Positions 87-30,216 are shown, counted from the first letter of the stretch. The stretch is 32,000 bases of DNA from Trichodesmium erythraeum IMS101 (GCF_000014265.1 NC_008312.1:2640001-2672000); one strand, 5' to 3'. Program-made: numbers and translations. The notes: a model not told the origin generated them from the sequence alone.

Positions 87-437
87 CTAACCCTCCGTCT
101 TATTCCATTTCAGAGTAATTTCATAGTTAACCTCCGCGCTACCTGATGCAATAACAGCTCCCAGTTCACCACTCATTTTTATCCCAAACTTCACCTCTAC
201 AGCATCAGCCGGTTGATTTAAGTCCTGAACCTTTTTGATAATTGCGTTGGCCACCGGCTTAATACTAGAAAGTGCCTTTCCCAGTGTTTGTTTAGCCTGT
301 TGAGCGACCTCATCCCCAATGCCAATTAACTCCTCATCTTCATCTTCATTGCTACTGACTGGTAGCTTTTCATCCACTTCCACATAGACAAAAGACTCAT
401 CATCATCATCTAACTGAAACTTAACTAATTTTGTCAC
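87..437 (-). CDS. small trypco1-like protein (trypsin-co-occurring domain 1 / CU044_2847-like), an accessory component of NTPase/protease conflict systems
   Basis: Track ORF 87..503. An acidic linker (DDDDESF...SSNEDEDEE) is followed by the C-terminal block VEVKFGIKMSGELGAVIASGSAEVNYEITLKW, which matches my memory of the trypco1 signature. The preferred start is GTG at 437 (V23 of the track ORF), with GGGAGGA 6 nt upstream. The ATG at 503 has no Shine-Dalgarno sequence. Confidence 0.5.
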   Translation of the reverse strand: MTKLVKFQLDDDDESFVYVEVDEKLPVSSNEDEDEELIGIGDEVAQQAKQTLGKALSSIKPVANAIIKKVQDLNQPADAVEVKFGIKMSGELGAVIASGSAEVNYEITLKWNKTEG

Positions 438-795
438 TTGTATCCTCCCGTCAGTCAATTTTTTTATATTTCCATATATTCTATAACAACTCGGCAGCCA
501 CATTGAGATGTCATTTCATTTATTCTTATGTTGGTGTTAAAACTGCCCGTAAAGATAAGAGTAAAAACTAAAAAATATCCTGCCATCCCATTCAAAACAA
601 ATGGAAAAATTACTGCTATATTCGTAGCTTAATTAACTAGGATATTATAAATATTATCAACCATCAACTAGAAAGAAAAATTAGCCTCAACTGTTTACCC
701 CTCCCCCATTCCTCCATTCCCCTACTTCCCATCCTGAGAGAGACTAGGGGAACAGAACCTAATCAAAGTGCCAAATTGAAAATTTTTCGAGCTAA

Positions 796-3844: not shown

Positions 3845-5032
3845 TTATCCTGTTTGTCCGAATCTTTCTAAAGATGAAGATGAATACATTGATGTTGAAT
3901 CATTAATAATACTTAAAATATCCCAAGCCACCCTTGACCAACTGTAATATAGCTCCGCTAGCTCACGCCCTCTTTTCCCCATTTCTTCTCTCTTGTTTGG
4001 CATAGACAACAAATAATCTATACAATCTGCAAATGCACCCGAATTTTCATAGTCTGTGATCACAATACCATTCTTACCAGGAATAATTACTTCCGGGTTT
4101 CCTCCCCTACCAGTAGTTATAGTACATAACCCAGTTGCCATAGCCTCATAATGCACCCTAGCTAGAGGCTCTTCCCATTGAGATGCACATACAAATACAT
4201 CACCTAATAAGAAATAATCTGCAACTTCATATGGGGGAATAAAACCAGTCATCTGAACTGCTCCTCCCAATTGTTCAGCCTTGACCTTAATTTCACGGAC
4301 ATAATCGTTTTCCTCATTATTACCATACCATTTACTACCCACTAGCAATAATACAGCAGATGGGTGTTTCTTGATAACTTTGGTCATAGCAGATATCAAC
4401 AAATGAGGCCCTTTTTTATCTGTTAACCTGCCCACATAAAGGATCACTTGTTTATCTTCTAAACCCAGAGCCGCCAACTTTTCTTTTCGTTTCCCTTCTA
4501 ATCCTTCTATCCACCTAGGCTGAAAGAGCTTTAGGTCTACTCCTGCATATACAGGTGTTAACTTATGTTCATATCCTGGAAATAATTTAGCTATTCCATC
4601 AGCAATAAACTTACTAACTGTCACCACTTTTTCCACTCGTTCCAAACATAGAATTGCTTCTTCAGGTTCAATCTTCTTAGCATGGAACATTTCATTGTGC
4701 ATACTCAGTATAAAACGACTGTTTGGTGCAACTTCAGCCACCATTGGTAAATACTTAGGACGATTGTAAATTACTATCCAATCAAACTCTCGTCCTGCTA
4801 CAAAATTGGTTACAGCGTGATAGTATTCCTCTGAAGTTTTTCTACTAGAACGTTTATAGAGAATATTGTCCCTAATTTCCTGATCTGGTAGTTCTGGATC
4901 AGCTACAGAGAATACTGTAACTTCATGATCTCGCTTCAGGAAAGGTAGAATACCATCTATATATGTCTGAATAGCCCCGCCTCGGATACAAGGCACTGGC
5001 AATTTTTCTGTGCAGACTAGTAGTATTTTCAC
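3845..5032 (-). CDS. glycosyltransferase family 4 (GT-B, group 1)
   Basis: 395-aa ORF. It has an N-terminal MKILLVCTE...GGAIQTY GT4 donor-fold start and a C-terminal E-x7-E motif (EEPLARVHYEAMATG) followed by GGNPEVI. Confidence 0.85.
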   Translation of the reverse strand: MKILLVCTEKLPVPCIRGGAIQTYIDGILPFLKRDHEVTVFSVADPELPDQEIRDNILYKRSSRKTSEEYYHAVTNFVAGREFDWIVIYNRPKYLPMVAEVAPNSRFILSMHNEMFHAKKIEPEEAILCLERVEKVVTVSKFIADGIAKLFPGYEHKLTPVYAGVDLKLFQPRWIEGLEGKRKEKLAALGLEDKQVILYVGRLTDKKGPHLLISAMTKVIKKHPSAVLLLVGSKWYGNNEENDYVREIKVKAEQLGGAVQMTGFIPPYEVADYFLLGDVFVCASQWEEPLARVHYEAMATGLCTITTGRGGNPEVIIPGKNGIVITDYENSGAFADCIDYLLSMPNKREEMGKRGRELAELYYSWSRVAWDILSIINDSTSMYSSSSLERFGQTG

Positions 5033-5300: not shown

Positions 5301-5829
5301 AATATTAATCACTATTAAGTAGGAGGCAAGAACAACAAGATCAGATCTTGCTGAATAAACTACATAATTATTTAGGATTTAAGTTGCGCGTCTAATGATA
5401 ATTCAATAAGGATAACTCAAGGCCTACATAGGTTAAATCTAAGCCACCTCAAACTACCAAGTTTTCCCGTAGCAGAAACAAGTGCCGCAGTAATATCACA
5501 ACCTTCATGGAAAAAAACTAGAGAAATAACATATTCAAGAAAAAAAAGCAAAAACTCACCCCAAGAAGGGCGAGGCTTTAAACCAAATTTTTTGGTAATA
5601 CTTTATATCGGAATTGGTACTTTCTTAAATTCTTAGTGTTACAGTGGTAAAGAAATAGAATACTTAAGCATTTTCAAAAAAACGTTTTTCTTTGATCATC
5701 TCTTCAACGGGAGAATAGTCTTCTCAATTTATACGACAAATACGACAAAGAAGAATACCAAACCTTCACCATGATAGCAAGGCTTGATATTCTCTCATTT
5801 TCTTAGTTACTTAGTCTAACAATGTTTAC

Positions 5830-6021
5830 CTACTTACTCTTTTTTCTAACAACTACAATTACAGGTTGTGCATCTTCTGGTGTCTGACCTTCTTCCTTTA
5901 GTCCTTTCAGCACTTGATTTACACGCCTCATTATCTTACCATTGCCATCATACAAATCACGAATATCTTCCCTCTTTGTCCCTTCCATTTCCAGAATAAT
6001 GGTGTTGGCCTTTTGCTTCAT
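5830..6021 (-). CDS. small Lys-tailed protein (63 aa), paralog 1, unknown family
   Basis: ATG preceded by TTAAGGAG with 8-nt spacing. It aligns with the 78-aa paralog (xIILExxG...DIxDL..G.GK...R..Q....L.E.G...E..QP(V/I)IVV.KK.K). Confidence 0.7.
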   Translation of the reverse strand: MKQKANTIILEMEGTKREDIRDLYDGNGKIMRRVNQVLKGLKEEGQTPEDAQPVIVVVRKKSK

Positions 6022-6101
6022 TTGATTTCTCCTTAATTTTTACTATTTGTATTGCCTTGCAACATTCAAACTACTCAAAACTAACACCCAAATTATCTAC
6101 C

Positions 6102-6182
6102 TTAAATCTGTATGACATCAACAGTTAAAGTAATAGCTATTGTAGGTGATCTCTTGCTAAGAGCAACAAGAACCATAGACAT
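6102..6182 (-). CDS. candidate 26-codon upstream ORF in the leader of paralog 1 (MSMVLVALSKRSPTIAITLTVDVIQI)
   Basis: ATG at 6182-6180 and TAA at 6104-6102. The same frame and length are conserved in the second cassette. There is no SD, so this could equally be a non-coding conserved element. Confidence 0.25.
   Translation of the reverse strand: MSMVLVALSKRSPTIAITLTVDVIQI
6117..6173. repeat. copy 1 of a ~55-nt conserved element (atcaacagttaaagtNatagctatNgtagg..ctcttgctaagagcaac)
   Basis: It contains the palindromes ATAGCTAT and CTCTT-GCT-AAGAG. It is repeated at 6694 and 6900. Confidence 0.8.
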
Positions 6183-6359
6183 AGTTCAAGTTTTCAAGAT
6201 CGTATCTTAATTCTAATCGTTCTACTAAACTTACCAAAACTTACTCATACATGGTTATAGGAGTGTAGTAAAGAAATAGAATACTTAAGCATTTTCAAAG
6301 ACACGTTTTCCTTTTATGATTTCTTCAATGAAGGAAGACTTGATGGAATTATCGTGTAC

Positions 6360-6596
6360 TTAATCAAAAAGACCCCTTTTCTTCTTTTTCTTCTTGGTGA
6401 CTACTATTATAGGTTGTATATTCTCGCCTACGTCACCTTGTTCTTGCAGTTGTGCTATTATCTGTTCTATCCTTTTAAATAACTTGCCCTCGCCTCTTCT
6501 CAAATCACTGATATCATCACTGTCAGCCCCCCCGAACTCAAGCACAACGGGGTTTCTATATTGCTTTCTTTCGGAACTATCACTAGTCATCACCAT
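6360..6596 (-). CDS. small Lys-tailed protein (78 aa), paralog 2, unknown family
   Basis: ATG at 6596 preceded by TTAAGGAG with 11-nt spacing. About 25 of 58 aligned residues are identical to paralog 1. The C-terminus reads QPIIVVTKKKKKKRGLFD. Confidence 0.7.
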   Translation of the reverse strand: MVMTSDSSERKQYRNPVVLEFGGADSDDISDLRRGEGKLFKRIEQIIAQLQEQGDVGENIQPIIVVTKKKKKKRGLFD

Positions 6597-6679
6597 TTTT
6601 TTCGTTCTCCTTAATTTTTACTATTTGTATTGCTTTGCAACATTTAGCCTACTCAAAACCAACACCCAAATTATTTACC

Positions 6680-6760
6680 TTAAATCTGTATGACATTAAC
6701 AGTTAAAGTGATAGCTATTGTAGGCGCTATCTTGCTAAGAGCAACAAGAACTATAGACAT
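6680..6760 (-). CDS. candidate 26-codon upstream ORF in the leader of paralog 2 (MSIVLVALSKIAPTIAITLTVNVIQI)
   Basis: Same position, length and frame as 6102..6182. It has 4 aa differences, and of ~7 nt changes about 2 are synonymous. Confidence 0.25.
   Translation of the reverse strand: MSIVLVALSKIAPTIAITLTVNVIQI
6694..6750. repeat. copy 2 of the ~55-nt conserved element
   Basis: cattaacagttaaagtgatagctattgtaggcgctatcttgctaagagcaacaagaac. Confidence 0.8.
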
Positions 6761-6899
6761 AGTTCAAATTTTCAAGATCATGTTTTAATTATAGCCGTTT
6801 TACTAAACTTGCCAAAACCCTATAATATATGGTTATGCAAGTTTTGAAATTAGCTTACTGTTTCAGCGAAGATCACCCAAGTATTCGTACAACAAAGCC

Positions 6900-6950
6900 C
6901 ATCAACAGTTAAAGTCATAGCTATGTTAGTCGCTCTCCTTGAAGGAGCAA
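6900..6950. repeat. copy 3 of the ~55-nt conserved element (diverged)
   Basis: catcaacagttaaagtcatagctatgttagtcgctctccttgaaggagcaa. ATAGCTAT is retained. The second palindrome is changed to CTCCTT-G-AAGGAG but stays palindromic. The element directly abuts the stop (6951-6953) of the third ORF. Confidence 0.75.
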
Positions 6951-7265
6951 CTAAAGTGGCTCTATAAGAACAGCCCTCAAACTCTTTCCTTGTTTTTTCT
7001 TTTTCTTTTTCGGCTTGCGAGTAGAATTTACACCATTCCGGTCTTTAGGAGAATATCCATAGATAGTTTTTGGTGTACCACCAAAACCCCCTTCACTCTC
7101 CAAGATAGTAATAGATTTTGTTTTTTCTTTTTTGGATATTTTTTCTATCTTTTCAGGAGGCTCTCCATCAAGATGAAAAGTTTTTGGTTTACCACCAAAA
7201 TCATCTTCACTGTCCAAGACAGTGACAATAATAGATTTTATTTTTTTCTTCTTTTGTTTTTTGTT
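6951..7265 (-). pseudogene. degenerate or atypical third member of the Lys-rich small-protein family, internally duplicated, no ATG/GTG start
   Basis: Open frame NKKQKKKKIKSIIVTVLDSEDDFGGKPKTFHLDGEPPEKIEKISKKEKTKSITILESEGGFGGTPKTIYGYSPKDRNGVNSTRKPKKKKKKQGKSLRAVLIEPL*. It has two ~108-bp modules (about 7064-7135 and 7172-7250). The only start candidate is TTG at 7217, without an SD. Confidence 0.35.
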
Positions 7266-7339
7266 TTAACTCCAATTCTATAATCTCATAAAAGCAGATA
7301 ATTTTTCCATTTTTCTTAGTAAATTTAATTTTTTATATA

Positions 7340-18180: not shown

Positions 18181-19314
18181 CTAGAGACTTTCAAACACCG
18201 CAAACATAGGTAAATACATAGATAGCAAAATTGAACCTACCATTCCACCAATACCCACGATCATTATTGGTTCTAACATACTTGAAAGAGACTTAACAGC
18301 CTCTTCCACCTCAATTTCATAAAAAGCTCCCACCTTCATCAGCATCTGATCCAATTCACCAGTTTCCTCACCAATAGCCATCATTTGAATTGCCAAAGAA
18401 GGGAACACTTGTTTCTCCTGCAAAGCCAAACTAATCATACCCCCACCTTGAATTTCCTGCCTTGCATACTCAATAGACTGAGCGATCGCCTCATTTCCTG
18501 CCACATTTCGGACAATTTCCAGAGACTTTAACATCGGCACTCCAGAACGAGTCAAAGTACCAAAAATCATACAAAAACGAGCTACTGCCGACTTTTCCAG
18601 AATGTCTCCAAAAATAGGAAGCTTGAGAAAAACCTTGTCAAAAAACAGTCTACCTTGGTCTGTTTTATAAATTATCGAATAGATAATATAAATAGCAATA
18701 ATTACACTTATAGTAGTGACTTGGGGAATTGGAGGCCAAGTCCTACAAAACTCACTTATACTTAACATAAACTTAGTAAAAGCTGGCAACTCTGTACCAA
18801 TTTGTTCAAAAATACCAGCAAAAGTTGGTAACAGAAAAGTTGTCATACCAAAAAACACTGCCAAAGCAATAAACATAACAGTTTTAGGATAAGACATCGC
18901 TGAATTAATTTCACTTATTGTCTTCGCATTTTTCTCCAACATAACTGCCAAACGATCTAGAACTTCATCAAGCACACCACCTACCTCTCCAGCAGCTACC
19001 ATACTTATAAATAATTCGTCAAAACAGGCAGGATGTTCTTTCATTGCTTCTGACAATTCATTACCCTTTTCTACTTCTCCACTTATTTGCTTAAGAGCAT
19101 ACTTAATCTTAGCATTAGAAGTTTGGTCTTTTAAAACTCTTAAACACCGAATCATCGGTACTCCAGCATTAAACATTGCAGCAAACTGACGGGCAAAAAT
19201 AGATAAATCTTTGACCGTCACCGATGCTATAGCAATATTTATTTTTTCTTCTATTATCTCTAACTGTTTTTCTAACTTACTTTGAGGTTTTTTCTTTTTT
19301 ATATTAACAGCCAT
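18181..19314 (-). CDS. pilC: type IV pilus platform protein PilC (GspF family)
   Basis: 377 aa with two GspF-type repeats (FARQFAAMFNAGVPMIRCL and FCMIFGTLTRSGVPMLKSL), EETGELDQML, and hydrophobic TM segments. Confidence 0.92.
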   Translation of the reverse strand: MAVNIKKKKPQSKLEKQLEIIEEKINIAIASVTVKDLSIFARQFAAMFNAGVPMIRCLRVLKDQTSNAKIKYALKQISGEVEKGNELSEAMKEHPACFDELFISMVAAGEVGGVLDEVLDRLAVMLEKNAKTISEINSAMSYPKTVMFIALAVFFGMTTFLLPTFAGIFEQIGTELPAFTKFMLSISEFCRTWPPIPQVTTISVIIAIYIIYSIIYKTDQGRLFFDKVFLKLPIFGDILEKSAVARFCMIFGTLTRSGVPMLKSLEIVRNVAGNEAIAQSIEYARQEIQGGGMISLALQEKQVFPSLAIQMMAIGEETGELDQMLMKVGAFYEIEVEEAVKSLSSMLEPIMIVGIGGMVGSILLSMYLPMFAVFESL

Positions 19315-19749
19315 TTTATTCCTTCTTTGTGTTATTTATTTAACTTCAAACAGATGAGGTAGAGAGTAGGGAAGATAGGTGGAAGGATAAAAAAACAAGC
19401 AACAATTACCCTGTCAGTTGTGCCACACTAATCACTGAATTTGCTATAATTTTTATGATCAAAAACAGATAGTAAGCAGTAGACAAAACAAACAATAAAC
19501 CTCCCACAATAGAGAAATTAAATTTGCCAATTTTTACTGTAAAATTAACAAGTTTATTCTTATGAGAACAAAAACAAAGTAGATAGGAAATCAGACCAAT
19601 ATATCTCTTGTGCAACAAAACTATAGCACTAGGAAGATAGGGCGCAGACATTTGTGAATTCTCAAACCCAGCCTTCGCAACTTCTGGCTTGCCCTTAGTC
19701 TTATAAAATCTTCCTTCCCCCCTTTTCCTTCATTCTTCTTTCTGCAATA

Positions 19750-20862
19750 TTAATGAGCTCTAGCTTTAGCCTTAGTTTTAGCCTTAGTTTCCCTGGGCTC
19801 AGGGCCAATCAAAGCCTCTAATTCATCAGGCTTAACTGCCTTAGCCATAGCATTTGCCCAAGTCACATTCCCTTTTTCATAAAGTTTAGCCAAAGACATT
19901 TCCATAGTTTGCATTCCTAACTTAGCGCCCATTTGAATTTGAGAATAAAGCTGAGAATTTTTCGACTCCCGAATTAAGTTAGCGATCGCCGGAGTATTCA
20001 ACATAATCTCATGAGCCGCACAACGACCCCCACCTGTTTTCTTAACTAAGTTTTGACTACAAATACAAACAATAGAGTTAGCCAACTGCGACCTCATTTG
20101 TGGTTGTTGTTCCGGCGGGAAAACATCCAACATCCGGTCTACCGTACCCGCAGCTGAGTTAGTGTGGAGAGTCCCAAAAACCAAGTGACCTGTTTCTGCC
20201 GCACTACAAGCCAAACCAATAGTTTCCAAATCCCGCATTTCCCCAACCAGAATAATATCAGGGTCTTGACGTAACGCTCCCTTCAGAGCATTAGCAAAAC
20301 TTTTCGTATCTTCACCTTTTTGTCGTTGATGAAACAAACTTTTTTGATTGGGAAACACATATTCTATGGGGTCTTCCACAGTCAAAATATGTTCAGTACG
20401 AGTACGGTTAATCAAATCTATTAAAGCTGCCATCGTAGTTGTCTTCCCAGAACCTGTTTGCCCCGTCACCAAAAACAATCCCCTGGGTCGCTCCGTCATT
20501 TCCCGTAAAATCATGGGAATCCCTAATTTATCTGCATTAGGAATTTTAGAAGCCAAAGCACGCATACAAGCAGCCCAACTACCCCGCTCCCGATACACAT
20601 TTAGACGGAAACGAGCCAAACCCTTAACACCATAAGCGCTATCAAGCTCCCAGTTTTGTTCTAAATGTTTCCGTTGCATATTATTGAGCATTTGGAAAAT
20701 CAGAGCTTGTACTACCATTGGTTCCATATTTTCCCCAAACTGAGTTTGAGCAGTCAACTGACCGTTAATACGGAAAAAAATTGGTGCTCTTGCTTGAATA
20801 TGAACATCAGAACCACCTTGTTCAACTAAAGATTCTAAAACATCCTCAATCATCAAAGACAT
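19750..20862 (-). CDS. pilT: twitching-motility retraction ATPase PilT
   Basis: 370 aa with GGSDVHI, Walker A GQTGSGKTT, ILVGEMRD, GHLVFGTLHT and AHEIMLNTPAIANLIRE. Confidence 0.93.
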   Translation of the reverse strand: MSLMIEDVLESLVEQGGSDVHIQARAPIFFRINGQLTAQTQFGENMEPMVVQALIFQMLNNMQRKHLEQNWELDSAYGVKGLARFRLNVYRERGSWAACMRALASKIPNADKLGIPMILREMTERPRGLFLVTGQTGSGKTTTMAALIDLINRTRTEHILTVEDPIEYVFPNQKSLFHQRQKGEDTKSFANALKGALRQDPDIILVGEMRDLETIGLACSAAETGHLVFGTLHTNSAAGTVDRMLDVFPPEQQPQMRSQLANSIVCICSQNLVKKTGGGRCAAHEIMLNTPAIANLIRESKNSQLYSQIQMGAKLGMQTMEMSLAKLYEKGNVTWANAMAKAVKPDELEALIGPEPRETKAKTKAKARAH

Positions 20863-21208
20863 ATAATTTAATCTCCCTTTTATTAGTTATTAGTTACTAA
20901 TTATTTTGACTTATCAGTTATACCAAATTATTCTGACTATTTACTTGTGGAAATAGTTAAACTATTAGTACTTAGACAAAGAAACCCAACTTCTTGGATA
21001 AATCATTCTTTTTAACAATACATATCTACTTTAAAAACCTGGTTTCAGAATTCCCCCGTGTAAGTCCTGGCTATTTTTCGCAGACCTTTGTCAAGCTAGT
21101 CTTATTAGTCCTGGGAAAATAATTTTTAACTGTTCGTCTTAAGTATTTATTGATAACAAACCTTTTCCACCCCCTTTTGCCCAACCTCCAACCCTTTACT
21201 TTCTACTC

Positions 21209-23380
21209 CTAATCAAAGCGAGGAGTCATACAGTAAGGACATTCTAACCATTCTGCTTGTAACTCAGCGTTACAACACTTACATATTAGATTTTGTTTAG
21301 CCAAGCGTTTCATTTCCGCCTCCAGACCAGAATCAGTAAATGTTACCCGTTCCACCTCCTCAAAAGTTGTATAACCTTCTCGTACCAAATTCAGACTATA
21401 TTGTAACAGAGGCTTCATCCCCTCTTCTACTGCAGCTTCCTTAATTTGTTCCGTCGGTACCCTTTGAGTAATTAAAGTTTGTAATCGCTCAGTAATTTTC
21501 ATAAACTCATAAACACCTACACGACCTTTATAACCAATACCATTACATTTGGGACATAACTCTCCCCTTTGTTTTAAATCTTCTCGTTGGTCAATTGGTA
21601 TAGTATTTGCTTTATAGTATGTAAAATCTTTTTCTTGAGAAGGAACCAAACCATAACGACGAAACTCATCAGGTTCAGGGTGATATTCTATTCGACATTT
21701 ACTGCAAACCCGACGCATCAGGCGTTGTGCTACTACACCCAACAAAGACGCTGAAACCATAAAAGATTCCACTCCCATTTCATCAAGACGAGCGATCGCT
21801 CCGGCAGCATCATTAGTATGTAGAGTTGTCAAAACCAAGTGCCCTGTTAACGCAGCTTCAATTGCCGTTTTTGCCGTTTCCTTATCTCGTGTTTCCCCTA
21901 CTAGTAAAACATCCGGGTCCTGTCGCAGAAATGCCCGTAGAATATTCGCAAAAGTTAAATCCTTTTCCCTAATTACCTGACATTGAGTAATTCCCGGCAA
22001 AGCATATTCTATTGGGTCTTCTGCCGTACTAATATTAATACTTGGGTCATTTCGTTCTGCCAAAATCGAATATAGAGAAGTAGACTTACCAGAACCAGTT
22101 GGCCCAGTCACCAGAATTAATCCAAATGGACGACTAGCAGTTTCCCTCACCATTGCCAAAGTGGCTTTATCTGTGATTAACTTATCTAACCCCAGTTGGG
22201 TACTAGAGCTATCCAAAATCCGCAAGACTATTTTTTCACCATAGCGACTAGGCAAACTATTGACCCGGAAGTCAATTGTACGCCCCTTAAAAACTTTGCG
22301 GATACGACCATCTTGTGCTTGCCTTCGTTCTGCAATATCTAAACTTGCAATAATTTTAAATCGTGAAGTAATAGCCGGAATCACCTTTTTCGGAAATCGG
22401 AAATATTCCTGTAATACCCCATCTTTGCGCATCCTGATTCTGATAAACTCTTCTTGTGGCTCGACATGAATATCGGATACACCCTCAGTCAGTGCTTTTA
22501 CTAAAATAATATTTACTGCTTTAATAACAGGAGCATCCTCAGCAGCAGAGATACTTTCAGCAATATCTTCTACTTCTTTTTCATCATCAGCTTCCTCTAA
22601 CTGATTATCACTTTCAAAGAAATTAGACTCTAACTCTAGCTCTTTTTGTTCTGCCTCTTTTGCCTTAACAATATTCTTCTTGCTTTGTTCCTCTAAGTAA
22701 TAGTTAATCAGACTTTCATAATCTTGTTTAGTAATAACCAAGCGTTGTAAAGTTAATCCACGATACCTCAAGATATTTTTTAACTCATCCAAAGCTTGAA
22801 GATTATGAGGATTAACCATTCCCATCATTACAAATGGTTGCTGATTTTCATAATCTTTCATTAAACTTGATGGTAATGAATCTCCTGCAAACTTTTCTAA
22901 TTCATCAACTAAACTACTTTCAGAATCACTGCTTTGCCTCAGTGCCTTTAAACTTTTTTCTTGACTTATCTTTCCTATTTGGACGAACTGATTTGCTAAA
23001 TCAGTTTCGCGACTAAAGAGTGGTATAATCTGATTCCGACGACAAGTTTCAATAGGAATTATCTTGTCGATTAAATAACATAACTGCTCTAGTGGTATTG
23101 GAGTAATTTCTGGGTCAAAAGTAGCTACACCATGTAGAATCATCAATTCAAATAGCTGCTGCTTTTTATAATGCCTAATTAAATCTGGCGGTAAGGGATG
23201 TCCTATTGCATCTTCGACCAAATCTGTCAGTGATTTGCCTGTCTTACGGCTTTCAATTTGGCAATGTTGGAATTGTTCAATGTTAACTAAGCCTGCCTGA
23301 ACCAGTTTATTCCCAAAAGGGGACAGATTACCGAGGGCAACTATAGCGGTGCGTGGATTGCGTGAAGAGCTTTGGGCCAT
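21209..23380 (-). CDS. pilB: type IV pilus assembly ATPase PilB (GspE family) with an extra C-terminal zinc-ribbon-like tail
   Basis: 723 aa with Walker A GPTGSGKST, LLVGETRD and GHLVLTTLHTNDA, plus the tetracysteine motif CSKC...CPKCNG. The terminal sequence is CKCCNAELQAEWLECPYC. Confidence 0.93.
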   Translation of the reverse strand: MAQSSSRNPRTAIVALGNLSPFGNKLVQAGLVNIEQFQHCQIESRKTGKSLTDLVEDAIGHPLPPDLIRHYKKQQLFELMILHGVATFDPEITPIPLEQLCYLIDKIIPIETCRRNQIIPLFSRETDLANQFVQIGKISQEKSLKALRQSSDSESSLVDELEKFAGDSLPSSLMKDYENQQPFVMMGMVNPHNLQALDELKNILRYRGLTLQRLVITKQDYESLINYYLEEQSKKNIVKAKEAEQKELELESNFFESDNQLEEADDEKEVEDIAESISAAEDAPVIKAVNIILVKALTEGVSDIHVEPQEEFIRIRMRKDGVLQEYFRFPKKVIPAITSRFKIIASLDIAERRQAQDGRIRKVFKGRTIDFRVNSLPSRYGEKIVLRILDSSSTQLGLDKLITDKATLAMVRETASRPFGLILVTGPTGSGKSTSLYSILAERNDPSINISTAEDPIEYALPGITQCQVIREKDLTFANILRAFLRQDPDVLLVGETRDKETAKTAIEAALTGHLVLTTLHTNDAAGAIARLDEMGVESFMVSASLLGVVAQRLMRRVCSKCRIEYHPEPDEFRRYGLVPSQEKDFTYYKANTIPIDQREDLKQRGELCPKCNGIGYKGRVGVYEFMKITERLQTLITQRVPTEQIKEAAVEEGMKPLLQYSLNLVREGYTTFEEVERVTFTDSGLEAEMKRLAKQNLICKCCNAELQAEWLECPYCMTPRFD

Positions 23381-24453: not shown

Positions 24454-25182
24454 ATGGCAGGAGAGAACTCCTCTACAGAAACAAAAAATCAAGAAATAAA
24501 TGAGAAGACTCCAGAGGTTCAAACTTTTGAAACTAATGTAGAATTCGAGTCATCTCAAAAGGTTGAAAGTGATACAGAACTTTCTGCAGATAATGCCTCT
24601 ATAGATACAGATATTCAGAGCACTGAATCAACCTCAAAAGAAAAAGATCAGGTCTTATTGAAAGAGGCTTATGAATTATTACAAACTCAGTTAGAAACTA
24701 CCAAGTATCAACTAGAAGAAAAAGAGAGTCAATACAAAAGGCTAGGCGCAGACTTTGACAACTTCCGTAAACGGACACAAAAAGAAAAGGAAGACTTGGA
24801 TACACAAGTCAAGTGTTCTACAATCATGGAACTATTACCAGTAATTGACAACTTTGAGCGTGCTCGCTCCCATATTAAACCTGCAAATGATGGAGAAATG
24901 GCTATCCATAAAAGCTATCAGAGCGTCTATAAGCAAATGGTAGACTCTTTGAAACGCTTAGGAGTTTCTGTTATGCGCCCTGAAGGTCAAGAATTTGATC
25001 CTAATCTACATGAGGCAGTAATGCGAGAGGCAACCGCAGAACATCCAGAAGGAACCGTAATAGAAGAATTGGTACGAGGTTATATTCTAGGTGAGCGTGT
25101 ACTCCGACACGCTATGGTTAAAGTAGCAACAGCACCAGATACAGATGCTGAGACCGAAAATCAAACAGATCCAGAAAGTTGA
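24454..25182 (+). CDS. grpE: nucleotide exchange factor GrpE
   Basis: 242 aa with SD GGAGAG upstream, a long acidic/Ser-rich N-terminus, and the GrpE core [13 protein letters not shown]...DNFERA...[12 protein letters not shown]. Confidence 0.93.
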
Positions 25183-26046
25183 TACTGGTTAGTGATTTTT
25201 TATTGAATTATTCTGCTTTAAGTTGTATTCATATCTATCCAAAATCAGCTACAAGAGAAACACATATGCTAATAGAAAATTTTCAATTTTCGGAAATTAA
25301 CTAATATTTTTTCTGAGTGCAACTTAAAATAACAAAACATAGTTTTTGAGGCTAATTAAGATTAGCAATAACTTGAAAAAATTCTATTATGAGTTGCTAA
25401 ATTAGCTGATTTTTTTTGCATATTTGAAAAAAAATATAGGAGATTAATATGTAAAAAAAAATAAATATAATTACATCAGATCCCTAGAATTTTTATTACA
25501 AATATTAATGATTAAACTTTTTTCGGGCAGGCATCTTTACCAATTTACAAAAAAAATTAATTGGTTAAAAGCCTTATCCATAAGTTAAGCAATAATTTTT
25601 TGAGTTGTTTTTTATAAATACATATGCTATGTAAAAAAATTAATTTAGTCGCGGGCAGCTAGCCCGAGATTCAAAACGGACGCACACCGCAAGGGTAACC
25701 ACCTCAACCAACCCCAATCCTCTCCTGTGAGGATACTAAAATAGGGAAAGCCGTCTATAAAATATTCAGCATGGGTTTTGCCGAACCTCAAACAACCTTT
25801 GATATTCGGCTCGGTAGGAATCCCAGGGCTTAAACCCAGGGAGGATGTTAACTGTTTTACCTGTCTTTATGGTCTTGCCAGATATATATCTATGTTTACC
25901 CTTGATGAAGTCCACACTTATCAACTACCAAACCAGAAAAAAGCTATCTCTTTTTATTTTTCTAGTCTGAGCATAAACGAAACTAGAGGCTTTAAAGCTT
26001 CATTCCAATAAAAAAAAATTTTGACTATTAAGAACGCCGAAGCACT

Positions 26047-28119
26047 ATGGGAAAAGTCATTGGCATTGATTTAGGAACAACTAATAGTTGTGTGGCCGTC
26101 TTAGAAGGGGGAAAAGCTGTTGTCATTTCCAACTCAGAAGGTGGACGTACGACACCCAGTATTGTAGGATTTAGCAAAGGAAATGAACGTTTAATTGGCC
26201 AACCTGCAAAGCGACAATTAGTAACCAATTCAGTAAATACAGTCTATAGCATTAAAAGATTTATCGGGAGAAGGTGGGATGATACCGAAGAAGAACGCTC
26301 TCGAGTTCCTTATATAAGTATTCAGGGTAAAGATGATACTGTAAATGTCCAGGCGAGGGGAAAAAACTATACTCCTCAAGAAATTTCAGCTATGATTCTG
26401 CAAAAAATGAAGCAGGATGCTGAAAAATATCTAGGCGATTCTGTTACTCAAGCTGTAATTACAGTACCAGCCTATTTTACAGATGCACAGAGACAAGCAA
26501 CTAAAGATGCAGGAACTATTGCTGGTCTAGAAGTGCTAAGAATTATCAATGAACCAACTGCAGCTTCATTATCCTACGGTATGGATAAGCAGGAGAAAGA
26601 TCATAGTATCTTAGTCTTTGACCTTGGTGGAGGGACTTTTGATGTTTCTATCTTACAATTGGGAGATGGAATCTTTGAAGTTAAGGCTACTTCGGGTAAC
26701 AATCATTTAGGAGGAGATGATTTTGATAATTGTATAGTTAATTGGTTAGTAGATCAATTCAGAAGTCAGGAAGGGAAAGATTTATCTCCAGATAAAATGG
26801 CAATACAAAGAGTGCGAGAAGCAGCAGAAAAGGCCAAAATAGAACTATCCTCTACCGAGAGTACAAATATTAATTTACCATTTATTATCGCTGACGAAAA
26901 AGGGCCAAAACATTTAGAAGCTCAGCTAACTCGCCCTCAATTTGAAAAATTGGTTCAGCCTTTGATTGAAAGAACGATTGAACCGGTAAAGCAGGCTCTC
27001 AAGGATGCTGGGATGAAGCCAGAAGATATAGACAAAATTATTCTTGTGGGAGGGTCTACTAGAATACCAGCAGTTCAAGCAGCAATAGGTAAGTTTTTTC
27101 ATGGTAAAGTTCATGATAGTTCGGTGAATCCTGATGAAGCTGTAGCTTTAGGGGCAGCTATTCAAGGTGGTATTTTAGGAGGTGAAGTTAAAGATCTTTT
27201 GTTATTAGATGTTATTCCTCTGTCCTTGGGTTTAGAAACTTTAGGAGGAATATATACTAAGGTAATTGAGAAAAATACTACAATTCCTACCAGTCGCTCC
27301 CAAATGTATTCTACTGCTGTGGATGGGCAAATATGTGTAGAAATTCATGTCCTCCAGGGTGAGCGACCAATGGTTAAAGATAATAAAAGTCTGGGTAAAT
27401 TTTTACTCAAAGGAATTCCTCCTGCTCCAAGAGGTGTACCACAAATAGAAGTTAATTTTTATATGGATGCTAATGGAATTCTGAAAGTTAACGCTCTAGA
27501 ACAAGGAACAGGTAGAAAACAAAGTATTGAAATTAGTAACACAGGTGGTCTGAGTGAATCTGAAATTCAACGAATGCAAAAAGAAGCAGAAACTTATGCA
27601 CAACAGGATAATCAACAAAAACAATTAGCAGAATTGAAAAATCAGGCACATACTCTGTTATATAACTATGAAGCAACTATTAAAGAACATGGTAGTTTTA
27701 TTGATCAACAGCTGGTTACAGAAATTGGTAATAGTTATGAGGAGTTAAAACAAGTATTGATTAATTATGAAACTGAAGTTAATTATGACCAACTAAGTCA
27801 GCAGATTGAAGTATTTAGGGAACAGCTATTTGCTTTAGGTGAAACTTTATATCAACAAGGGGGAAGTGAAAAGCTAAAATTACCAGAAGAAGATAAAAAT
27901 TCTCAGGTGCTTCAAAATTCAGAAATTACAAAGCCAGAAAGTCCAAAGGAAATATCTGTTGTAAAAGCAGAAATTACAGAGTCAAAAACTTCTTCTAAAG
28001 AAGTAGAAAGTGAGATTTTTGTTGATACTAACTCAAATATAAATGATGTAAATTCAAGCAGGGATCAAGAAACAATAAAAGCTACTGAGAATGAACTTAG
28101 CCAAAATCCGTTTCTATAG
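26047..28119 (+). CDS. dnaK: Hsp70 chaperone DnaK (long-tailed, grpE-linked, DnaK1-like paralog)
   Basis: 690 aa with [16 protein letters not shown] and [12 protein letters not shown]. It has a ~90-aa low-complexity C-terminal extension and no EEVD-like end. Confidence 0.95.
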
Positions 28120-29091
28120 AAATAGAAATTCTTAGTACAGGACAAAATTTATAAATACTCTAAAAATGCAAGGTATTTTAGATTTAAATCATTTCCTGGG
28201 AAGATGAGCAGACAGAGCACATAGAGCGAATAAATCCACTTTTTGAGTTCTCCTAAAGATAGAAGGATGGCAAAAATTGGGTGAAAAACCTCCCACAATC
28301 CCTACAGTCTTTTGTTTAGTAATTTTTTATTTGTTTTTTTAGAGTATATATGTTATAATATAAATATTTATTTTTGGAAAATTAGTATGAAGTAAAAAAT
28401 GGATACACCAGGCAGGGGTAATCCAACTTCAGAGGGGTACAGTACAGCAGCTGATGAAATGTGAACCACCCACCAGCCCTTGGGCTTAGGAACGTTATAA
28501 ACTCGGTACCAATCAGTCGGGGAGGATTTAAAAGAGACTGTATAGATATGGTAGCAACTCAAGCAAGTTACTCTGTTGAGTGGCATAGAGATAAATTAGT
28601 TAAGTGTATCTGAATTATGCAATATTTGACCAGATAAAAGCTATGTATCTGGTAAATGCTTGTCTCATTTCTCAGGAGGAGTCCATGTATCCCTAACCTC
28701 ACTATTCAGTTAGGAAGTGGGACCTATAACACTTTGAACTCCTCACAAATTAAAGTCAAGCTGCTCAAATTAGCATTTTGTACAATCTAGGTTCAGACCC
28801 AATGCCTATTATTTCTTGTTGAAAATAAACATCTTTTGAGACTCAGGATTCTACACAAGCAATTGAAATCTGGAATTTTCTTGACTTGTAACCATTGAAA
28901 CAGAAGGCTTGAGACCTTAATTTATTGATTATTAATAATAAATCTGTAGATTTATCATAAGTTTGTGCTAGACTAGATAAAGGCGAGAATAAATATACTG
29001 GGAAATTAAGACCAAAAAAATGATCGCCTAATAAATACATAAAATCACAAAGTATACATATTAACATTATTAATTCTAGGCAAATAGCTCT

Positions 29092-30216
29092 ATGGCCCGC
29101 GATTATTACGAAATTCTAGGTGTTTCTCGTAGTGCAGATAAAGAGGAACTAAAGCGTGCCTACCGTCGCTTGGCTCGTAAGTACCACCCAGATGTGAATA
29201 AAGAACCAGGATCAGAAGAGCGCTTTAAAGAGATAAATCGAGCTTACGAAATTCTTTCAGATCCAGAAATGAAGGCCCGTTTTGATCGCTTTGGAGAAGC
29301 TGGGGTATCAGGAGGAGCAGCATCAGGTTTTTCAACAGACTTTTCAGATAGCTTCGCTGATATATTTGAAAGCTTTTTCAGTGGGTTTGGAGGAGCGGGA
29401 ACTCAAGGACGTAGGCGAACAGGTCCAGTAAGAGGAGATGACTTACGTTTAGACTTGAATCTGGAGTTTATCGAAGCTATATTTGGTGGTGATAAAGAAC
29501 TAACAATTAAACACCTGGAAACTTGTGGAACCTGTAATGGTTCAGGGGCTAAACCAGGTACAAAACCTCAAACTTGCTCTACTTGTGGGGGTACGGGTCA
29601 AGTTCGCCGAGCGACAAGAACTCCTTTTAGTAGTTTCACTCAAGTTTCAGTTTGTCCCTCATGTAACGGTAGTGGACAGATAATAGAAGAAAAATGTGTT
29701 GATTGTGGAGGCCGTGGACAGAAAGAGGCTACAAAAAAAATAAAAATTACTATCCCAGGGGGGGTAGACAATGGTACTAGGTTACGAGTATCTAATGAAG
29801 GAGATGCAGGTCGGATGGGTGGCCCACCAGGAGACTTGTATGTTTTTCTATCCGTAAAAAATCACCCAGAGTTTCAAAGAGATGGAATTAATATTATCTC
29901 CCAAATAAAAATTAGCTATTTACAAGCAATTCTGGGTTGTTGTTTGGAAATAAATACAGTTGATGGTAAGACGGAATTAACAATTCCATCAGGAACTCAG
30001 CCTAATGCAATTTTAACTTTGGAAGATAAGGGAGTACCTAGACTAGGTAATTCAGTAAGTCGTGGGGCTCATCTGATTACTATCGAAATTGATATTCCCA
30101 CAAAAATTACTCCAGAAGAAAAAGAGTTATTGGAAAAATTGGCAAAGATTAAAGGTGAACGTACTGGAAAAGGAGGTATAGAAGGGTTTCTGGGAAGTTG
30201 GTTTCAACAAAAGTGA
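29092..30216 (+). CDS. dnaJ: type I Hsp40 co-chaperone DnaJ
   Basis: J-domain with HPD (KYHPDVNK), a G/F-rich linker, and four CxxCxGxG motifs ([32 protein letters not shown]). Confidence 0.95.

What the first reader, a model, noticed from the sequence alone, without database searches (positions are those of the whole stretch)
5647..7283. Tandem cassette of divergent lysine-tailed mini-proteins behind near-identical long leaders with a conserved uORF/palindromic element
Two minus-strand genes (63 and 78 aa) each have a strong TTAAGGAG SD and share the architecture xI(I/V)LExxGG, D(I)xDL, GxGK, then QP(V/I)IVV and a poly-Lys tail. They are only about 43% identical in protein (25 of 58 aligned residues). 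Their ~190-nt 5' leaders are about 91% identical, and 33 nt of their trailers are 100% identical. Non-coding flanks much better conserved than the CDS is the opposite of the usual pattern. It suggests a constrained RNA/DNA element, or gene conversion of the flanks combined with diversification of the proteins. Each leader carries a 26-codon ORF (MSMVLVALSKRSPTIAITLTVDVIQI / MSIVLVALSKIAPTIAITLTVNVIQI). Each also carries a ~55-nt element with the palindromes ATAGCTAT and CTCTTGCTAAGAG. A third, diverged copy of the element (6900-6950) keeps ATAGCTAT and replaces the second palindrome by a different palindrome, CTCCTTGAAGGAG, which is a compensatory-looking change. That third copy follows a third Lys-rich, internally duplicated ORF (6951-7265) that lacks a normal start. 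I cannot place the proteins in a named family. The layout (small peptide, spacer, small basic protein, repeated in tandem) resembles small-gene addiction or regulatory modules, but that is speculation.
Basis: seen in the sequence. Interest (0 to 1): 0.7.

Follow-up and report, generated by a model that had tools for sequence, protein, structure and literature searches.

The report
Hypervariable small-protein genes, ordinary repeated leaders
Two tandem genes for small proteins of unknown function (Pfam DUF6200) in the marine nitrogen-fixer Trichodesmium erythraeum look odd because their coding regions are hot spots of amino-acid-changing variation in wild populations, while the repeated non-coding leaders in front of them evolve at the ordinary background rate and show no sign of being a special RNA element.

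Summary
In detail: the coordinates, ORFs and identity figures all reproduce.

**What it is.** The window is the Trichodesmium erythraeum IMS101 chromosome, not Nostocales. The 63- and 78-aa proteins are Pfam DUF6200. The third ORF (Tery_1738) is a degenerate DUF6312 gene. DUF6312 followed by one to three DUF6200 genes is a conserved cyanobacterial module.

**The leaders.** Each ~600-nt unit has a predicted sigma-70 promoter, a ~185-nt 5'UTR and a strong Shine-Dalgarno sequence.
- The leaders are Trichodesmium-specific; only ~38 nt are shared with Okeania.
- They evolve at background rate.
- They fold no better than shuffles, show no covariation and have no Rfam match.
- The "uORF" is not coding-like: its start is lost, changes are nonsynonymous, and one relative has a frameshift.

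**The real anomaly is the coding sequence.**
- Wild T. erythraeum haplotypes are 99-100% identical over 7 kb of flanks but differ at 18 of 237 nt in the 78-aa gene (p=3e-12), almost all amino-acid-changing.
- A second clade shows the same pattern.
- Polymorphism is about 10-fold in excess relative to between-clade divergence (p~1e-9).
- Some variants are shared across clades and alleles are mosaic.

**Best reading.** Balancing or diversifying selection acts on an exposed helix of a small, probably membrane-tethered protein, and patchy gene conversion keeps the flanks alike. Function remains unknown.

The parts
6951..7265 (-). Degenerate DUF6312 gene. It is annotated as Tery_1738, 88 aa from TTG 7217. 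The N-terminal module is duplicated, the ancestral start is lost and the C-terminal domain is missing.
   Evidence: Pfam DUF6312, E 2.5e-9, two stretches. Internal 89-nt repeat. Intact 113-aa orthologs carry a conserved C-terminal domain that is absent here. Wild haplotypes L019 and L041 keep the ancestral ATGTCATCA on an 18-nt segment that IMS101 lacks, but it is +1 out of frame across an A7 run. Identified as Tery_1738.
6900..6951 (-). Third, partial copy of the leader element (79% identity). It lies exactly at the junction where the DUF6312 gene is truncated and is probably a relic of a rearrangement.
   Evidence: Repeat family D2 and pattern search. It is present in all T. erythraeum-type haplotypes but absent at this position in the sister clade. 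The junction was mapped against L007.
6788..6815 (-). Predicted sigma-70-type promoter of the 78-aa gene (TTGGCA, 16-nt spacer, TATAAT; 11 of 12 matches). It is conserved in sister-clade leaders.
   Evidence: Consensus scan and alignment A3. This is a prediction only; no TSS data could be read.
6597..6781 (-). Predicted ~185-nt 5'UTR (leader 2). It ends in AAATAGTAAAAATTAAGGAG, with the SD AAGGAG at 6607-6612. It contains the 26-codon ORF 6680-6760, which does not behave like coding sequence.
   Evidence: Only the last ~38 nt are conserved in Okeania-type loci.
6360..6596 (-). DUF6200 paralog A (78 aa, RefSeq WP_044136586). This is the hypervariable gene.
   Evidence: Pfam DUF6200, 87.7 bits; accession. 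AF2 fold is beta-alpha-alpha-beta plus a polybasic tail. Window versus L019: 18 of 237 differences against 49 of 6934 elsewhere, p=2.6e-12. pi 0.066 against 0.005 in its leader. HKA-like p=5e-9.
6265..6328 (-). Copy 2 of the 64-nt downstream ('trailer') block. It abuts the start of leader 1.
   Evidence: Repeat D4, 89% identity; 57 of 64 identical.
6210..6237 (-). Predicted promoter of the 63-aa gene (TTGGTA, 16-nt spacer, TAGAAT; 9 of 12 matches).
6022..6204 (-). Predicted 5'UTR (leader 1), with the SD AAGGAG at 6029-6034. It contains the 26-codon ORF 6102-6182.
5830..6021 (-). DUF6200 paralog C (63 aa, RefSeq WP_044136585). It is moderately hypervariable. A premature stop removes the conserved C-terminal ...KGLLD found in orthologs.
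   Evidence: Pfam DUF6200, 66.9 bits. Orthologs are 70-71 aa and end in GLLD. Twelve of 192 sites segregate, pi 0.031.
5644..5707 (-). Copy 1 of the 64-nt downstream block.
5555..5574 (-). Intrinsic-terminator-like hairpin plus T-run. It probably ends transcripts from both promoters.
   Evidence: Also conserved in L007.
3845..5032 (-). GT4-family glycosyltransferase Tery_1737. It is the conserved downstream neighbour in Trichodesmium and Okeania and is 100% identical among the T. erythraeum haplotypes.

Best explanation
This is the T. erythraeum IMS101 copy of a conserved cyanobacterial small-protein module: one DUF6312 gene (here decayed to Tery_1738) followed by two tandem DUF6200 paralogs.

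**Layout.** Each DUF6200 gene sits in a ~600-nt repeat unit. The unit consists of a sigma-70-type promoter, a ~185-nt 5'UTR ending in an A-rich extended Shine-Dalgarno, the coding sequence, and a 64-nt downstream block. One strong terminator lies after the second unit.

**Why flanks look more conserved than the genes.** Two processes explain it.
1. The two protein types are old; both exist in Okeania. The long non-coding flanks were duplicated or homogenised later, within Trichodesmium, and are still exchanged in patches by gene conversion. Otherwise they drift at the background rate.
2. The coding sequences, above all the 78-aa gene, are kept highly polymorphic by balancing or diversifying (frequency-dependent) selection, with intragenic recombination.
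 - Variation is concentrated on the exposed face of helix alpha-2 (residues 38, 41-42, 45-46, 49, 53) and the following loop (54-59).
 - The buried positions (F40, E44, I47, Q51), both beta-strands and the polybasic tail stay fixed.

**Inferred, not shown.** The domain is a small beta-alpha-alpha-beta adaptor. Its polybasic tail with a hydrophobic end docks it on an anionic surface such as a membrane, and its variable helix is a recognition surface for a fast-evolving partner (a phage or other antagonist, or another cell). The leader is simply promoter, UTR and a strong ribosome-binding site.

The confidence given applies to the evolutionary explanation. The proposed cellular function is much less certain (about 0.2-0.3).
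For: **Family and synteny**
- Pfam hits for both families.
- DUF6312-DUF6200-DUF6200-GT order in other Trichodesmium, Okeania and related contigs.
- DUF6312 lies within 2 kb of DUF6200 in 11 of 19 further loci.

**Flanks are secondary and unconstrained**
- Only ~38 nt of leader are shared with Okeania-type loci, while the CDS orthologs align at 74-76%.
- Five paralog-diagnostic leader columns are shared across clades. Even so, the two IMS101 leaders are 92% alike, against 88-91% to their orthologs.
- Leader diversity (pi 0.005-0.006) equals that of the adjacent intergenic DNA.
- No structure signal.

**CDS hot spot**
- 18 of 237 differences against 49 of 6934 elsewhere, OR 11.5, p=2.6e-12.
- Segregating-site density is 0.131 (gene 2) and 0.062 (gene 1), against 0.010-0.023 in the non-coding flanks.
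- All 13 codons that differ between the window and L019 change the amino acid.
- dN/dS is about 2.5, p=0.04.
- HKA-like contrast: CDS has 29+23 polymorphic and 19 fixed sites; the leader has 3+4 polymorphic and 46 fixed; p=5e-9 and 1.4e-11. Five polymorphisms are shared between clades.
- The same hot spot appears in the sister clade: 8.4% against 2.0-2.5% (p=5e-6), and 10 of 237 against 2 of 695 (p=4e-5).
- The P0006 allele was recovered identically from three independent assemblies.

**Structure and tail**
- AF2 pLDDT 79.8, with E18-24, H26-33, H37-52 and E63-68.
- The family-wide tail is QP(V/I)IVV, then Lys/Arg, then a short hydrophobic end.
- DUF6200 occurs as the C-terminal domain of a class-3 lipase (Tery_3825) and of lectin-like proteins.
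Against: - The haplotypes come from short-read metagenome assemblies. They were picked because their proteins differ. One contig (L042) is demonstrably chimeric upstream of the locus, so mosaic alleles could partly be assembly artefacts.
- Only six erythraeum-type and three sister-clade haplotypes were available.
- dN/dS above 1 is only marginally significant. Variable sites are not significantly biased by codon position (14/11/6).
- In IMS101 the partner gene and the C-terminus of paralog C are degenerate, so part of the module may be decaying.
- The promoters and 5'UTR ends are predictions.
- There is no experimental or literature information on DUF6200 or DUF6312. The membrane-docking and recognition function is inference only.
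Confidence: 0.7

Rival explanations
1. The ~190-nt leader is a functional cis-regulatory RNA, either a structured element or a uORF-based attenuator. Purifying selection holds it constant while the genes drift.
For: - The leader is the least variable segment in several comparisons (pi 0.0067 in the sister clade; 1 of 290 and 4 of 279 differences).
- The 26-codon frame stays open in five of six full-length leaders.
- One base pair shows a double change (GC/GU/AU).
- The third copy keeps a palindrome with a T-A to C-G swap.
- The predicted UTR, at about 185 nt, is long compared with the 52-nt median reported for this organism (PMC4143802).
Against: - Folding energy is no better than shuffles (z -0.53 and -0.10). 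The covariation term is -0.39, with 1 of 45 pairs compensatory.
- No Rfam match at E<=1.
- Leader diversity is not lower than that of neighbouring intergenic DNA in the erythraeum clade (0.012 against 0.014).
- Nothing beyond ~38 nt is conserved in Okeania.
- The sister clade's third gene lacks the promoter, the uORF start and the palindrome.
- The uORF start changes from ATG to TTG, 8 of 9 variable codons are nonsynonymous, and L044 has a frameshift.
- Stems of 5 bp or more occur in ~22% of random 52-mers.
Confidence: 0.1
2. The coding-region variation is produced by a targeted mutator, such as the Trichodesmium diversity-generating retroelement (DGR), rather than by selection on standing alleles.
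For: - A DGR (RT Tery_1728/1729, targets Tery_1727 and Tery_1731) lies only ~6-10 genes from this locus and is intact in wild populations (PMC4143802).
- Variable sites sit mostly at codon positions 1 and 2 (25 of 31) and span ~115 nt.
Against: - Nine of 31 variable sites have no adenine in any allele. G is as frequent as A among the observed states.
- The variable stretch is central, not at the 3' end.
- There is no template-like copy in the 32-kb window.
- The described TR matches C-termini of DUF323 proteins only.
- Between-clade divergence of the CDS (18%) is no higher than that of the leader (19%). A locally raised mutation rate would not give this.
Confidence: 0.04
3. The divergent coding sequences are artefacts of metagenome assembly (strain mixing or chimeras), or simply relaxed constraint in decaying genes.
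For: - L042 is chimeric with a dnaA fragment at a 14-nt shared word.
- Tery_1738 and the 3' end of paralog C are degenerate in IMS101.
- dN/dS is about 1 in the sister clade.
Against: - Identical variant alleles recur in independent assemblies and samples: P0006 in three assemblies, P0001 in a MAG and a second assembly, P0007 in two.
- Flanks of more than 3 kb on each side are 99-100% identical to the isolate genome, so it is the same locus.
- Relaxed constraint cannot push divergence 10-fold above neighbouring intergenic DNA.
- Core residues remain invariant across 41 homologs.
Confidence: 0.05
4. The cassette is a toxin-antitoxin or addiction-type module, or a mobile repeat (MITE-like) that carries small genes.
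For: It has small tandem genes, repeated flanks, and conflict-system genes (Trypco1, trypsin-VMAP) a few kb away.
Against: - No toxin, antitoxin or defence-family match. The single PADLOC hit, E=0.005 to an ATPase model, is noise.
- The genes have separate promoters and are 338 nt apart.
- The setting is core chromosome, between psb27 and a glycosyltransferase and near pilBTC and dnaK.
- An exact-pattern scan for the element over 185,579 genomes found only the orthologous Trichodesmium locus plus six chance hits.
Confidence: 0.03

Closest known systems
Pfam DUF6200 (PF19702), uncharacterised small proteins; includes RefSeq WP_044136586 and WP_044136585
   Same: Both genes score far above the gathering threshold over the full model. 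They share the family's beta-alpha-alpha-beta core and the QP(V/I)IVV-polybasic tail.
   Different: Nothing is known about the family. Population-level hypervariability, tandem units with individual long leaders, and linkage to DUF6312 are not part of any description I could find.
Pfam DUF6312 (PF19831)
   Same: Tery_1738 matches the N-terminal module (KSITxLxSExxFGG plus poly-Lys). It occupies the position of the intact 113-aa orthologs.
   Different: The N-terminal module is duplicated, the ancestral start is lost or frameshifted, and the conserved C-terminal domain is absent. It is probably a pseudogene in T. erythraeum.
Tery_3825, a class-3 lipase with a C-terminal DUF6200 domain, reported as induced by iron stress (PMC4642986, PMC5776111)
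   Same: Same domain in the same genome, with the same core motifs.
   Different: There the domain is the C-terminal appendage of an enzyme with a short tail (…VEKKRD). Here it is free-standing with a long Lys tail. No variability data were examined.
Polymorphic recognition loci with conserved flanks, such as the Bacillus comQXP or staphylococcal agr pherotype loci and other loci under balancing selection (my own knowledge, not tested here)
   Same: A short hypervariable coding segment lies inside near-identical flanks. There are multiple old alleles, mosaic recombination, and variants shared across related lineages.
   Different: No receptor or processing gene co-varies next door; the glycosyltransferase and Tery_1738 are invariant among erythraeum haplotypes. 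The Trichodesmium proteins have no signal peptide. No signalling function is known.
Variable regions of the Trichodesmium diversity-generating retroelement (PMC4143802)
   Same: Localised codon-position-1/2 variability in wild populations of the same organism. The retroelement lies a few genes away.
   Different: The variation is not adenine-restricted, not 3'-terminal and not in a DUF323 domain. No template repeat was seen.

Membership tests
Pfam DUF6200 (PF19702) | Profile HMM score above the curated gathering threshold (26.9 bits) over most of the model | tested here: met
   66.9 bits (63 aa; model positions 9-73 of 76) and 87.7 bits (78 aa; model positions 11-76 of 76).
Pfam DUF6312 (PF19831) | Profile HMM score above the gathering threshold (27 bits) | tested here: met
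   37.7 bits, two stretches covering the N-terminal part of the model only (positions 2-49 of 98).
Pfam DUF6312 (PF19831) | Full-length architecture with the conserved C-terminal domain (EK..F..YDKAT..YRDRH..SN.KKKNGWI.D.PKN) | tested here: not met
   Alignment A5: the window ORF stops just after the poly-Lys segment. The start codon is missing or frameshifted.
uORF / leader-peptide attenuator | A reading frame with a start codon that is conserved, and a substitution pattern showing selection on translation or on the peptide | tested here: not met
   ATG changes to TTG in the sister clade, 8 of 9 variable codons are nonsynonymous, L044 has a 2-nt deletion that shifts the frame, and the sister-clade third leader lacks it. 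There is no SD before the ATG.
uORF / leader-peptide attenuator | Alternative terminator/antiterminator structures downstream of the uORF | tested here: not met
   No terminator-like site lies between the uORF and the gene. The folds are not more stable than shuffles.
Structured cis-regulatory RNA (riboswitch-like, Rfam) | Match to a curated covariance model | tested here: not met
   No hit at gathering score in the window. No hit in the leader at E<=1.
Structured cis-regulatory RNA (riboswitch-like, Rfam) | Covariation supporting a conserved secondary structure | tested here: inconclusive
   One of 45 predicted pairs is compensatory and the covariation term is -0.39. Only six leaders at 81-99% identity were available, so power is low.
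DGR variable region | Variable sites correspond only to adenines of a template repeat | tested here: not met
   Nine of 31 variable sites have no A in any allele.
DGR variable region | A near-identical template repeat next to a reverse transcriptase | not testable with these tools
   None in the 32-kb window. The rest of the genome could not be scanned. The published TR matches DUF323 C-termini.
Toxin-antitoxin / defence module | Similarity of either product to a known toxin, antitoxin or defence protein family | tested here: not met
   Pfam, NCBIfam and PADLOC gave no meaningful hit.
Dispersed mobile repeat (MITE-like) | Multiple copies at unrelated genomic sites | tested here: not met
   There are three copies, all within this locus in the window. 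The exact-pattern scan of 185,579 genomes found only the orthologous Trichodesmium MAG_R02 locus plus six chance hits. Diverged copies would be missed.
Locus under balancing/diversifying selection (evolutionary class) | Excess of polymorphism relative to divergence compared with linked neutral DNA | tested here: met
   HKA-like 2x2 test, p=5e-9 and 1.4e-11. CDS versus 7 kb of flanks, p=2.6e-12. Replicated in a second clade.
Locus under balancing/diversifying selection (evolutionary class) | dN/dS above 1 and polymorphisms shared across lineages | tested here: inconclusive
   dN/dS is about 2.5 at p=0.043 in the erythraeum clade and about 1 in the sister clade. Five polymorphic sites are shared. 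The sample is small and assembly-based.

The most novel reading that the evidence does not exclude
The DUF6312-DUF6200 module is an unrecognised polymorphic recognition or conflict system of filamentous cyanobacteria. In this reading, a small protein tethered by a polybasic tail displays a hypervariable helix whose alleles are kept in wild Trichodesmium populations by frequency-dependent selection. The driving force could be specificity towards phages or other antagonists, or self/non-self discrimination between trichomes in colonies.
Probability: 0.2. Interest if true: 0.8.

Novelty: new member of a known kind. Interest (0 to 1): 0.55.

Why it matters
Trichodesmium supplies a large share of new nitrogen to the tropical ocean, and its genome is famous for abundant, unexplained non-coding DNA.

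**What the locus does not show.** An eye-catching "conserved non-coding, divergent coding" pattern here does not indicate a new RNA element.

**What it does show.**
- A 78-aa protein of a wholly uncharacterised family (DUF6200) is one of the sharpest polymorphism hot spots one could expect in a bacterial chromosome.
- The signal was replicated in two Trichodesmium clades.
- Signatures of old, recombining alleles are present.

**What follows.**
- The result gives the DUF6200/DUF6312 families their first functional hint: a variable exposed helix on a conserved scaffold with a basic tail.
- It offers a compact marker for strain-level diversity in wild Trichodesmium.
- If the selective agent is a phage or kin recognition, it would be a new handle on population structure and colony biology in an organism that cannot yet be manipulated genetically.

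Tried and rejected
- **Literature.** Searches for DUF6200, DUF6312, Tery_1737/1738 and the RefSeq accessions found nothing on these genes. Only Tery_3825 is mentioned. A search for Trichodesmium with balancing or diversifying selection found nothing relevant.
- **Transcription start sites.** The dRNA-seq paper holds no supplementary tables in the library. Its main-text tables do not cover this locus. The predicted promoters are therefore unverified.
- **Metagenome scans.** The scan with the single protein found nothing. The profile scan returned 16 mostly distant loci and no extra close alleles.
- **Structure comparisons.** The PDB sequence search and Foldseek against the PDB gave no match. 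The fold is a minimal beta-alpha-alpha-beta unit.
- **Relation between the two families.** hhalign of DUF6200 against DUF6312 profiles gave no detectable homology.
- **Donor for gene conversion.** The variant states in gene 2 do not match the codons of gene 1. The C-terminal domain of Tery_3825 could be compared only at protein level.
- **Rfam.** The weak hit at 5542-5616 (rnk leader, 24 bits against a 55-bit threshold, E=0.24) overlaps the terminator and was dismissed.
- **Covariance model of the leader.** Not built. Only six closely related leaders exist in the data held, and there was no further collection to search with it.
- **Gene 1 dN/dS on a spanning tree.** Discarded because L042 and L047 carry an indel that put them out of register.


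Full report

Yes. On the minus strand there are two ORFs: 63 aa (5830-6021) and 78 aa (6360-6596). Each lies behind TTAAGGAG.
- The proteins share 27 of 62 aligned residues.
- The 190 nt before each Shine-Dalgarno are 90.5% identical. The whole 245-nt repeat (6027-6271 versus 6605-6849) is 86.5% identical.
- A 64-nt block downstream of each gene is 89% identical, with a 32-nt perfect run.
- The coding DNA aligns at only 119 identical columns out of 238 in a global alignment.
- Both 26-codon ORFs exist.
- A 52-nt element occurs three times, at 6116-6167, 6694-6745 and 6900-6951. A 25-nt pattern from it has no match expected by chance.
- The third, Lys-rich ORF is internally duplicated and has no normal start before TTG 7217.

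**2. Where are we and what are the genes?**

The window is the chromosome of Trichodesmium erythraeum IMS101, not a Nostocales genome.
- The glycosyltransferase at 3845-5032 is ABG50998 (by its position next to Tery_1738, Tery_1737). The 88-aa ORF is Tery_1738.
- The two small genes are RefSeq WP_044136585 and WP_044136586, found on the 7,750,108-nt record. They carry no ABG (GenBank) accession in the look-up.
- Both small proteins are clear members of Pfam DUF6200 (66.9 and 87.7 bits against a 26.9-bit threshold). The third ORF matches DUF6312.
- No paper in the library mentions either family.
- The surroundings are core chromosome: psb27, pilB/pilT/pilC and grpE-dnaK-dnaJ. A Trypco1/trypsin-VMAP system sits at the left edge.
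- There are no tRNAs and no Rfam families.

**3. A conserved module.**

- The order DUF6312, DUF6200 (A type, 78-80 aa), DUF6200 (C type, 63-71 aa), glycosyltransferase recurs in a second Trichodesmium clade (MAG_R02 type), in Okeania and in related contigs.
- In 11 of 19 further cyanobacterial loci, a DUF6312 gene lies within 2 kb of one to three DUF6200 genes.
- The two families show no profile-level homology to each other.
- The A/C duplication therefore predates the Trichodesmium-Okeania split.
- Against intact 113-aa orthologs, Tery_1738 has a duplicated N-terminal module and lacks the conserved C-terminal domain.
- Wild haplotypes L019 and L041 still carry the ancestral ATGTCATCA start on an 18-nt segment that IMS101 has lost. 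That start is +1 out of frame across an A7 run. Tery_1738 looks like a pseudogene.
- Paralog C in IMS101 has a premature stop that removes the conserved ...KGLLD end.

**4. What are the leaders?**

Each begins with a sigma-70-like promoter: TTGGCA-16-TATAAT at 6815-6788 (11 of 12 matches) and TTGGTA-16-TAGAAT at 6237-6210. This predicts ~185-nt 5'UTRs. A strong terminator follows the second unit, at 5574-5555. The repeat unit is thus promoter, UTR, gene, then the 64-nt block.

Evidence against a special RNA or DNA element:
- The UTRs fold no better than shuffles (z -0.53 and -0.10).
- Six leaders give a covariation term of -0.39, with one compensatory pair in 45.
- There is no Rfam hit even at E<=1.
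- Outside Trichodesmium only the last ~38 nt (AAATAGTAAAAATTAAGGAG...) are conserved.
- Between the two Trichodesmium clades the leader is 81-83% identical. That is the same as the ordinary intergenic DNA downstream (82.5%) and less than the glycosyltransferase gene (91.4%).
- In the sister clade the C-type gene's leader lacks the promoter, the uORF start and the palindrome.
- The uORF start becomes TTG there. Eight of nine variable codons are nonsynonymous, and one contig has a 2-nt deletion in it.
- Perfect stems of 5 bp or more occur in ~22% of shuffled 52-mers.
- The element is not a dispersed repeat. A scan of 185,579 genomes found only the orthologous Trichodesmium locus plus six chance hits.

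The third copy sits at the point where the DUF6312 gene is truncated relative to the sister clade. I read it as a relic of a rearrangement. Its "compensatory" palindrome is a single event.

**5. Why are the paralogous leaders so alike?**

- Neutral DNA is saturated between Trichodesmium and Okeania. Leaders that are 88-92% alike therefore cannot date from the old A/C duplication.
- In the 3' 102 columns of the leader, five sites distinguish A-type from C-type leaders in both clades. The leader duplication therefore predates the split of the clades.
- Yet the two IMS101 leaders are 92% alike, against 88-91% to their orthologs, and they share two clade-specific states. The sister clade's two leaders are only 80-82% alike.
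- This fits duplication or homogenisation of the flanks in the Trichodesmium ancestor, followed by patchy gene conversion in the erythraeum lineage.
- The sister clade also carries an extra, stop-containing copy of the C gene with a breakpoint inside the leader. The array is evidently recombination-prone.

**6. The real anomaly is the coding sequence.**

- *Window versus L019.* Contig L019 is 99-100% identical to the window across psb27, all intergenic DNA, both leaders and the glycosyltransferase, but only 92.4% identical in the 78-aa gene. Over 7363 aligned nt there are 18 differences in its 237 nt against 49 in the other 6934 (odds ratio 11.5, p=2.6e-12). All 13 differing codons change the amino acid.
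- *Six erythraeum-type haplotypes.* Segregating-site density is 0.131 in gene 2 and 0.062 in gene 1, against 0.010-0.023 in the non-coding flanks. pi is 0.066 and 0.031 against ~0.005.
- *dN/dS.* On a spanning tree dN/dS is about 2.5 (p=0.043).
- *Polymorphism versus divergence.* The leader has 3+4 polymorphic and 46 fixed sites between clades. The CDS has 29+23 polymorphic, 5 shared and 19 fixed sites (p=5e-9 and 1.4e-11). Between-clade divergence of the CDS (18%) equals that of the leader, so a simple local rise in mutation rate does not fit. Old alleles kept by selection, with recombination, do.
- *Mosaic alleles.* Codons 21-22 (TTC GGG versus TAC TCT) and codons 36, 49 and 55 carry the same alternative states in both clades. 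All four combinations of codon 21 and codon 45 states occur.
- *Second clade.* The sister clade shows the same hot spot: 8.4% against 2.0-2.5% (p=5e-6), and 10 of 237 against 2 of 695 (p=4e-5).

**7. Caveats.**

- The haplotypes are short-read metagenome contigs, chosen because their proteins differ.
- One contig (L042) is chimeric with a dnaA fragment just upstream of the locus. Mosaicism could therefore be partly artefactual.
- Against this, the variant alleles recur in independent assemblies, and the flanks match the isolate genome.
- Relaxed constraint cannot exceed the neutral rate of the flanks.
- A DGR lies only a few genes away (Tery_1727-1731, PMC4143802). However, 9 of 31 variable sites never carry adenine, the variable stretch is central, and no template copy is in the window.

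**8. What might the protein do?**

- AlphaFold (pLDDT 79.8) gives strand 18-24, helix 26-33, helix 37-52 and strand 63-68. The N-terminus and the Lys tail are disordered. There is no similar solved structure.
- Invariant residues F40, E44, I47 and Q51 line one face of helix 2. The most variable residues (38, 41-42, 45-46, 49, 53) line the other face and run into loop 54-59. This is an exposed surface on a fixed scaffold.
- Across 150 representatives the tail is QP(V/I)IVV, then Lys/Arg, then a short hydrophobic end. Only six have a hydrophobic N-terminal stretch, and three of these look like signal peptides.
- The domain also ends a class-3 lipase in the same genome (Tery_3825) and lectin-like proteins in Nostoc. 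Tery_3825 is reported as induced by iron stress.
- My inference, unproven, is that the domain is a small docking module for an anionic surface such as a membrane, and that its exposed helix is a recognition site engaged in an arms race or in self/non-self discrimination.

**9. Verdict.**

The "conserved RNA/uORF/palindrome element" reading is not supported. The "flank conversion plus protein diversification" reading is supported and sharpened into a population-genetic result. The genes are members of known but uncharacterised families. The hypervariability appears unreported.

Noticed in passing
window 7217-7300; L019:3270-3410, L041:2260-2400: Wild T. erythraeum haplotypes L019 and L041 carry an 18-nt segment with the ancestral DUF6312 start (ATGTCATCA). 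IMS101 and L047 lack it. Even where present, the start is +1 out of frame with the rest of the gene across an A7 homopolymer. It is either a pseudogene or a slippage-prone tract.
   Followed up: partly
L042:1-520: Upstream of position ~503 the contig continues in frame into a DnaA AAA+ fragment (…GGVGLGKTHL…IDDVQFFGGK). The two parts are joined at a shared TTTTGGTGGTAAAC word. This is almost certainly a metagenome assembly chimera, and a warning about the other contigs.
   Followed up: partly
L007:3780-3815 (also L027, L044; not L043): An 11-nt tandem duplication (ACGGCTATAAT x2) doubles the predicted -10 box of the A-type leader in part of the sister clade.
   Followed up: no
L007:4368-4660: The sister clade has an extra C-type DUF6200 copy. 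It has an in-frame stop, 21- and 33-nt internal repeats, and a leader cut to ~50 nt. This is evidence of recent unequal recombination in the array.
   Followed up: partly
window 87-503 and leftwards (L001:11196-12237): A Trypco1 protein lies next to a 643-aa trypsin/VMAP-M1/VMAP-C protein. This is a conflict-system-type gene pair about 5 kb from the cassette.
   Followed up: no
outside the window (Tery_1727-1731, per PMC4143802): The Trichodesmium diversity-generating retroelement (RT pseudogene Tery_1728/1729, template repeat and two targets) lies only about 6-10 genes from Tery_1737/1738. In L008 a 1182-aa FGE-sulfatase (DUF323-type) gene follows the glycosyltransferase.
   Followed up: partly
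not in window: Tery_3825 (P0206): IMS101 encodes a 561-aa class-3 lipase ending in a DUF6200 domain. Two papers report it as strongly induced under iron limitation, within the Tery_3823-3826 cluster.
   Followed up: partly
L024:3174-5207: An unidentified cyanobacterium has two DUF6312 genes divergently oriented to two DUF6200 genes that are only 78 nt apart. It has no long leaders and no glycosyltransferase. One DUF6312 copy also has a duplicated N-terminal module, as Tery_1738 does.
   Followed up: no
Genome-contig scan: The exact element pattern, which matches three times in the window, did not hit any T. erythraeum record among the species-representative genomes. Either the representative is not IMS101-like at this locus or the stretch is masked.
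   Followed up: no
window 18181-23380: A type IV pilus gene set (two T2SSE ATPases, pilB/pilT-like, and a T2SSF platform protein) is followed by grpE-dnaK-dnaJ and rsgA at 24454-31974. This is ordinary core-genome context.
   Followed up: no
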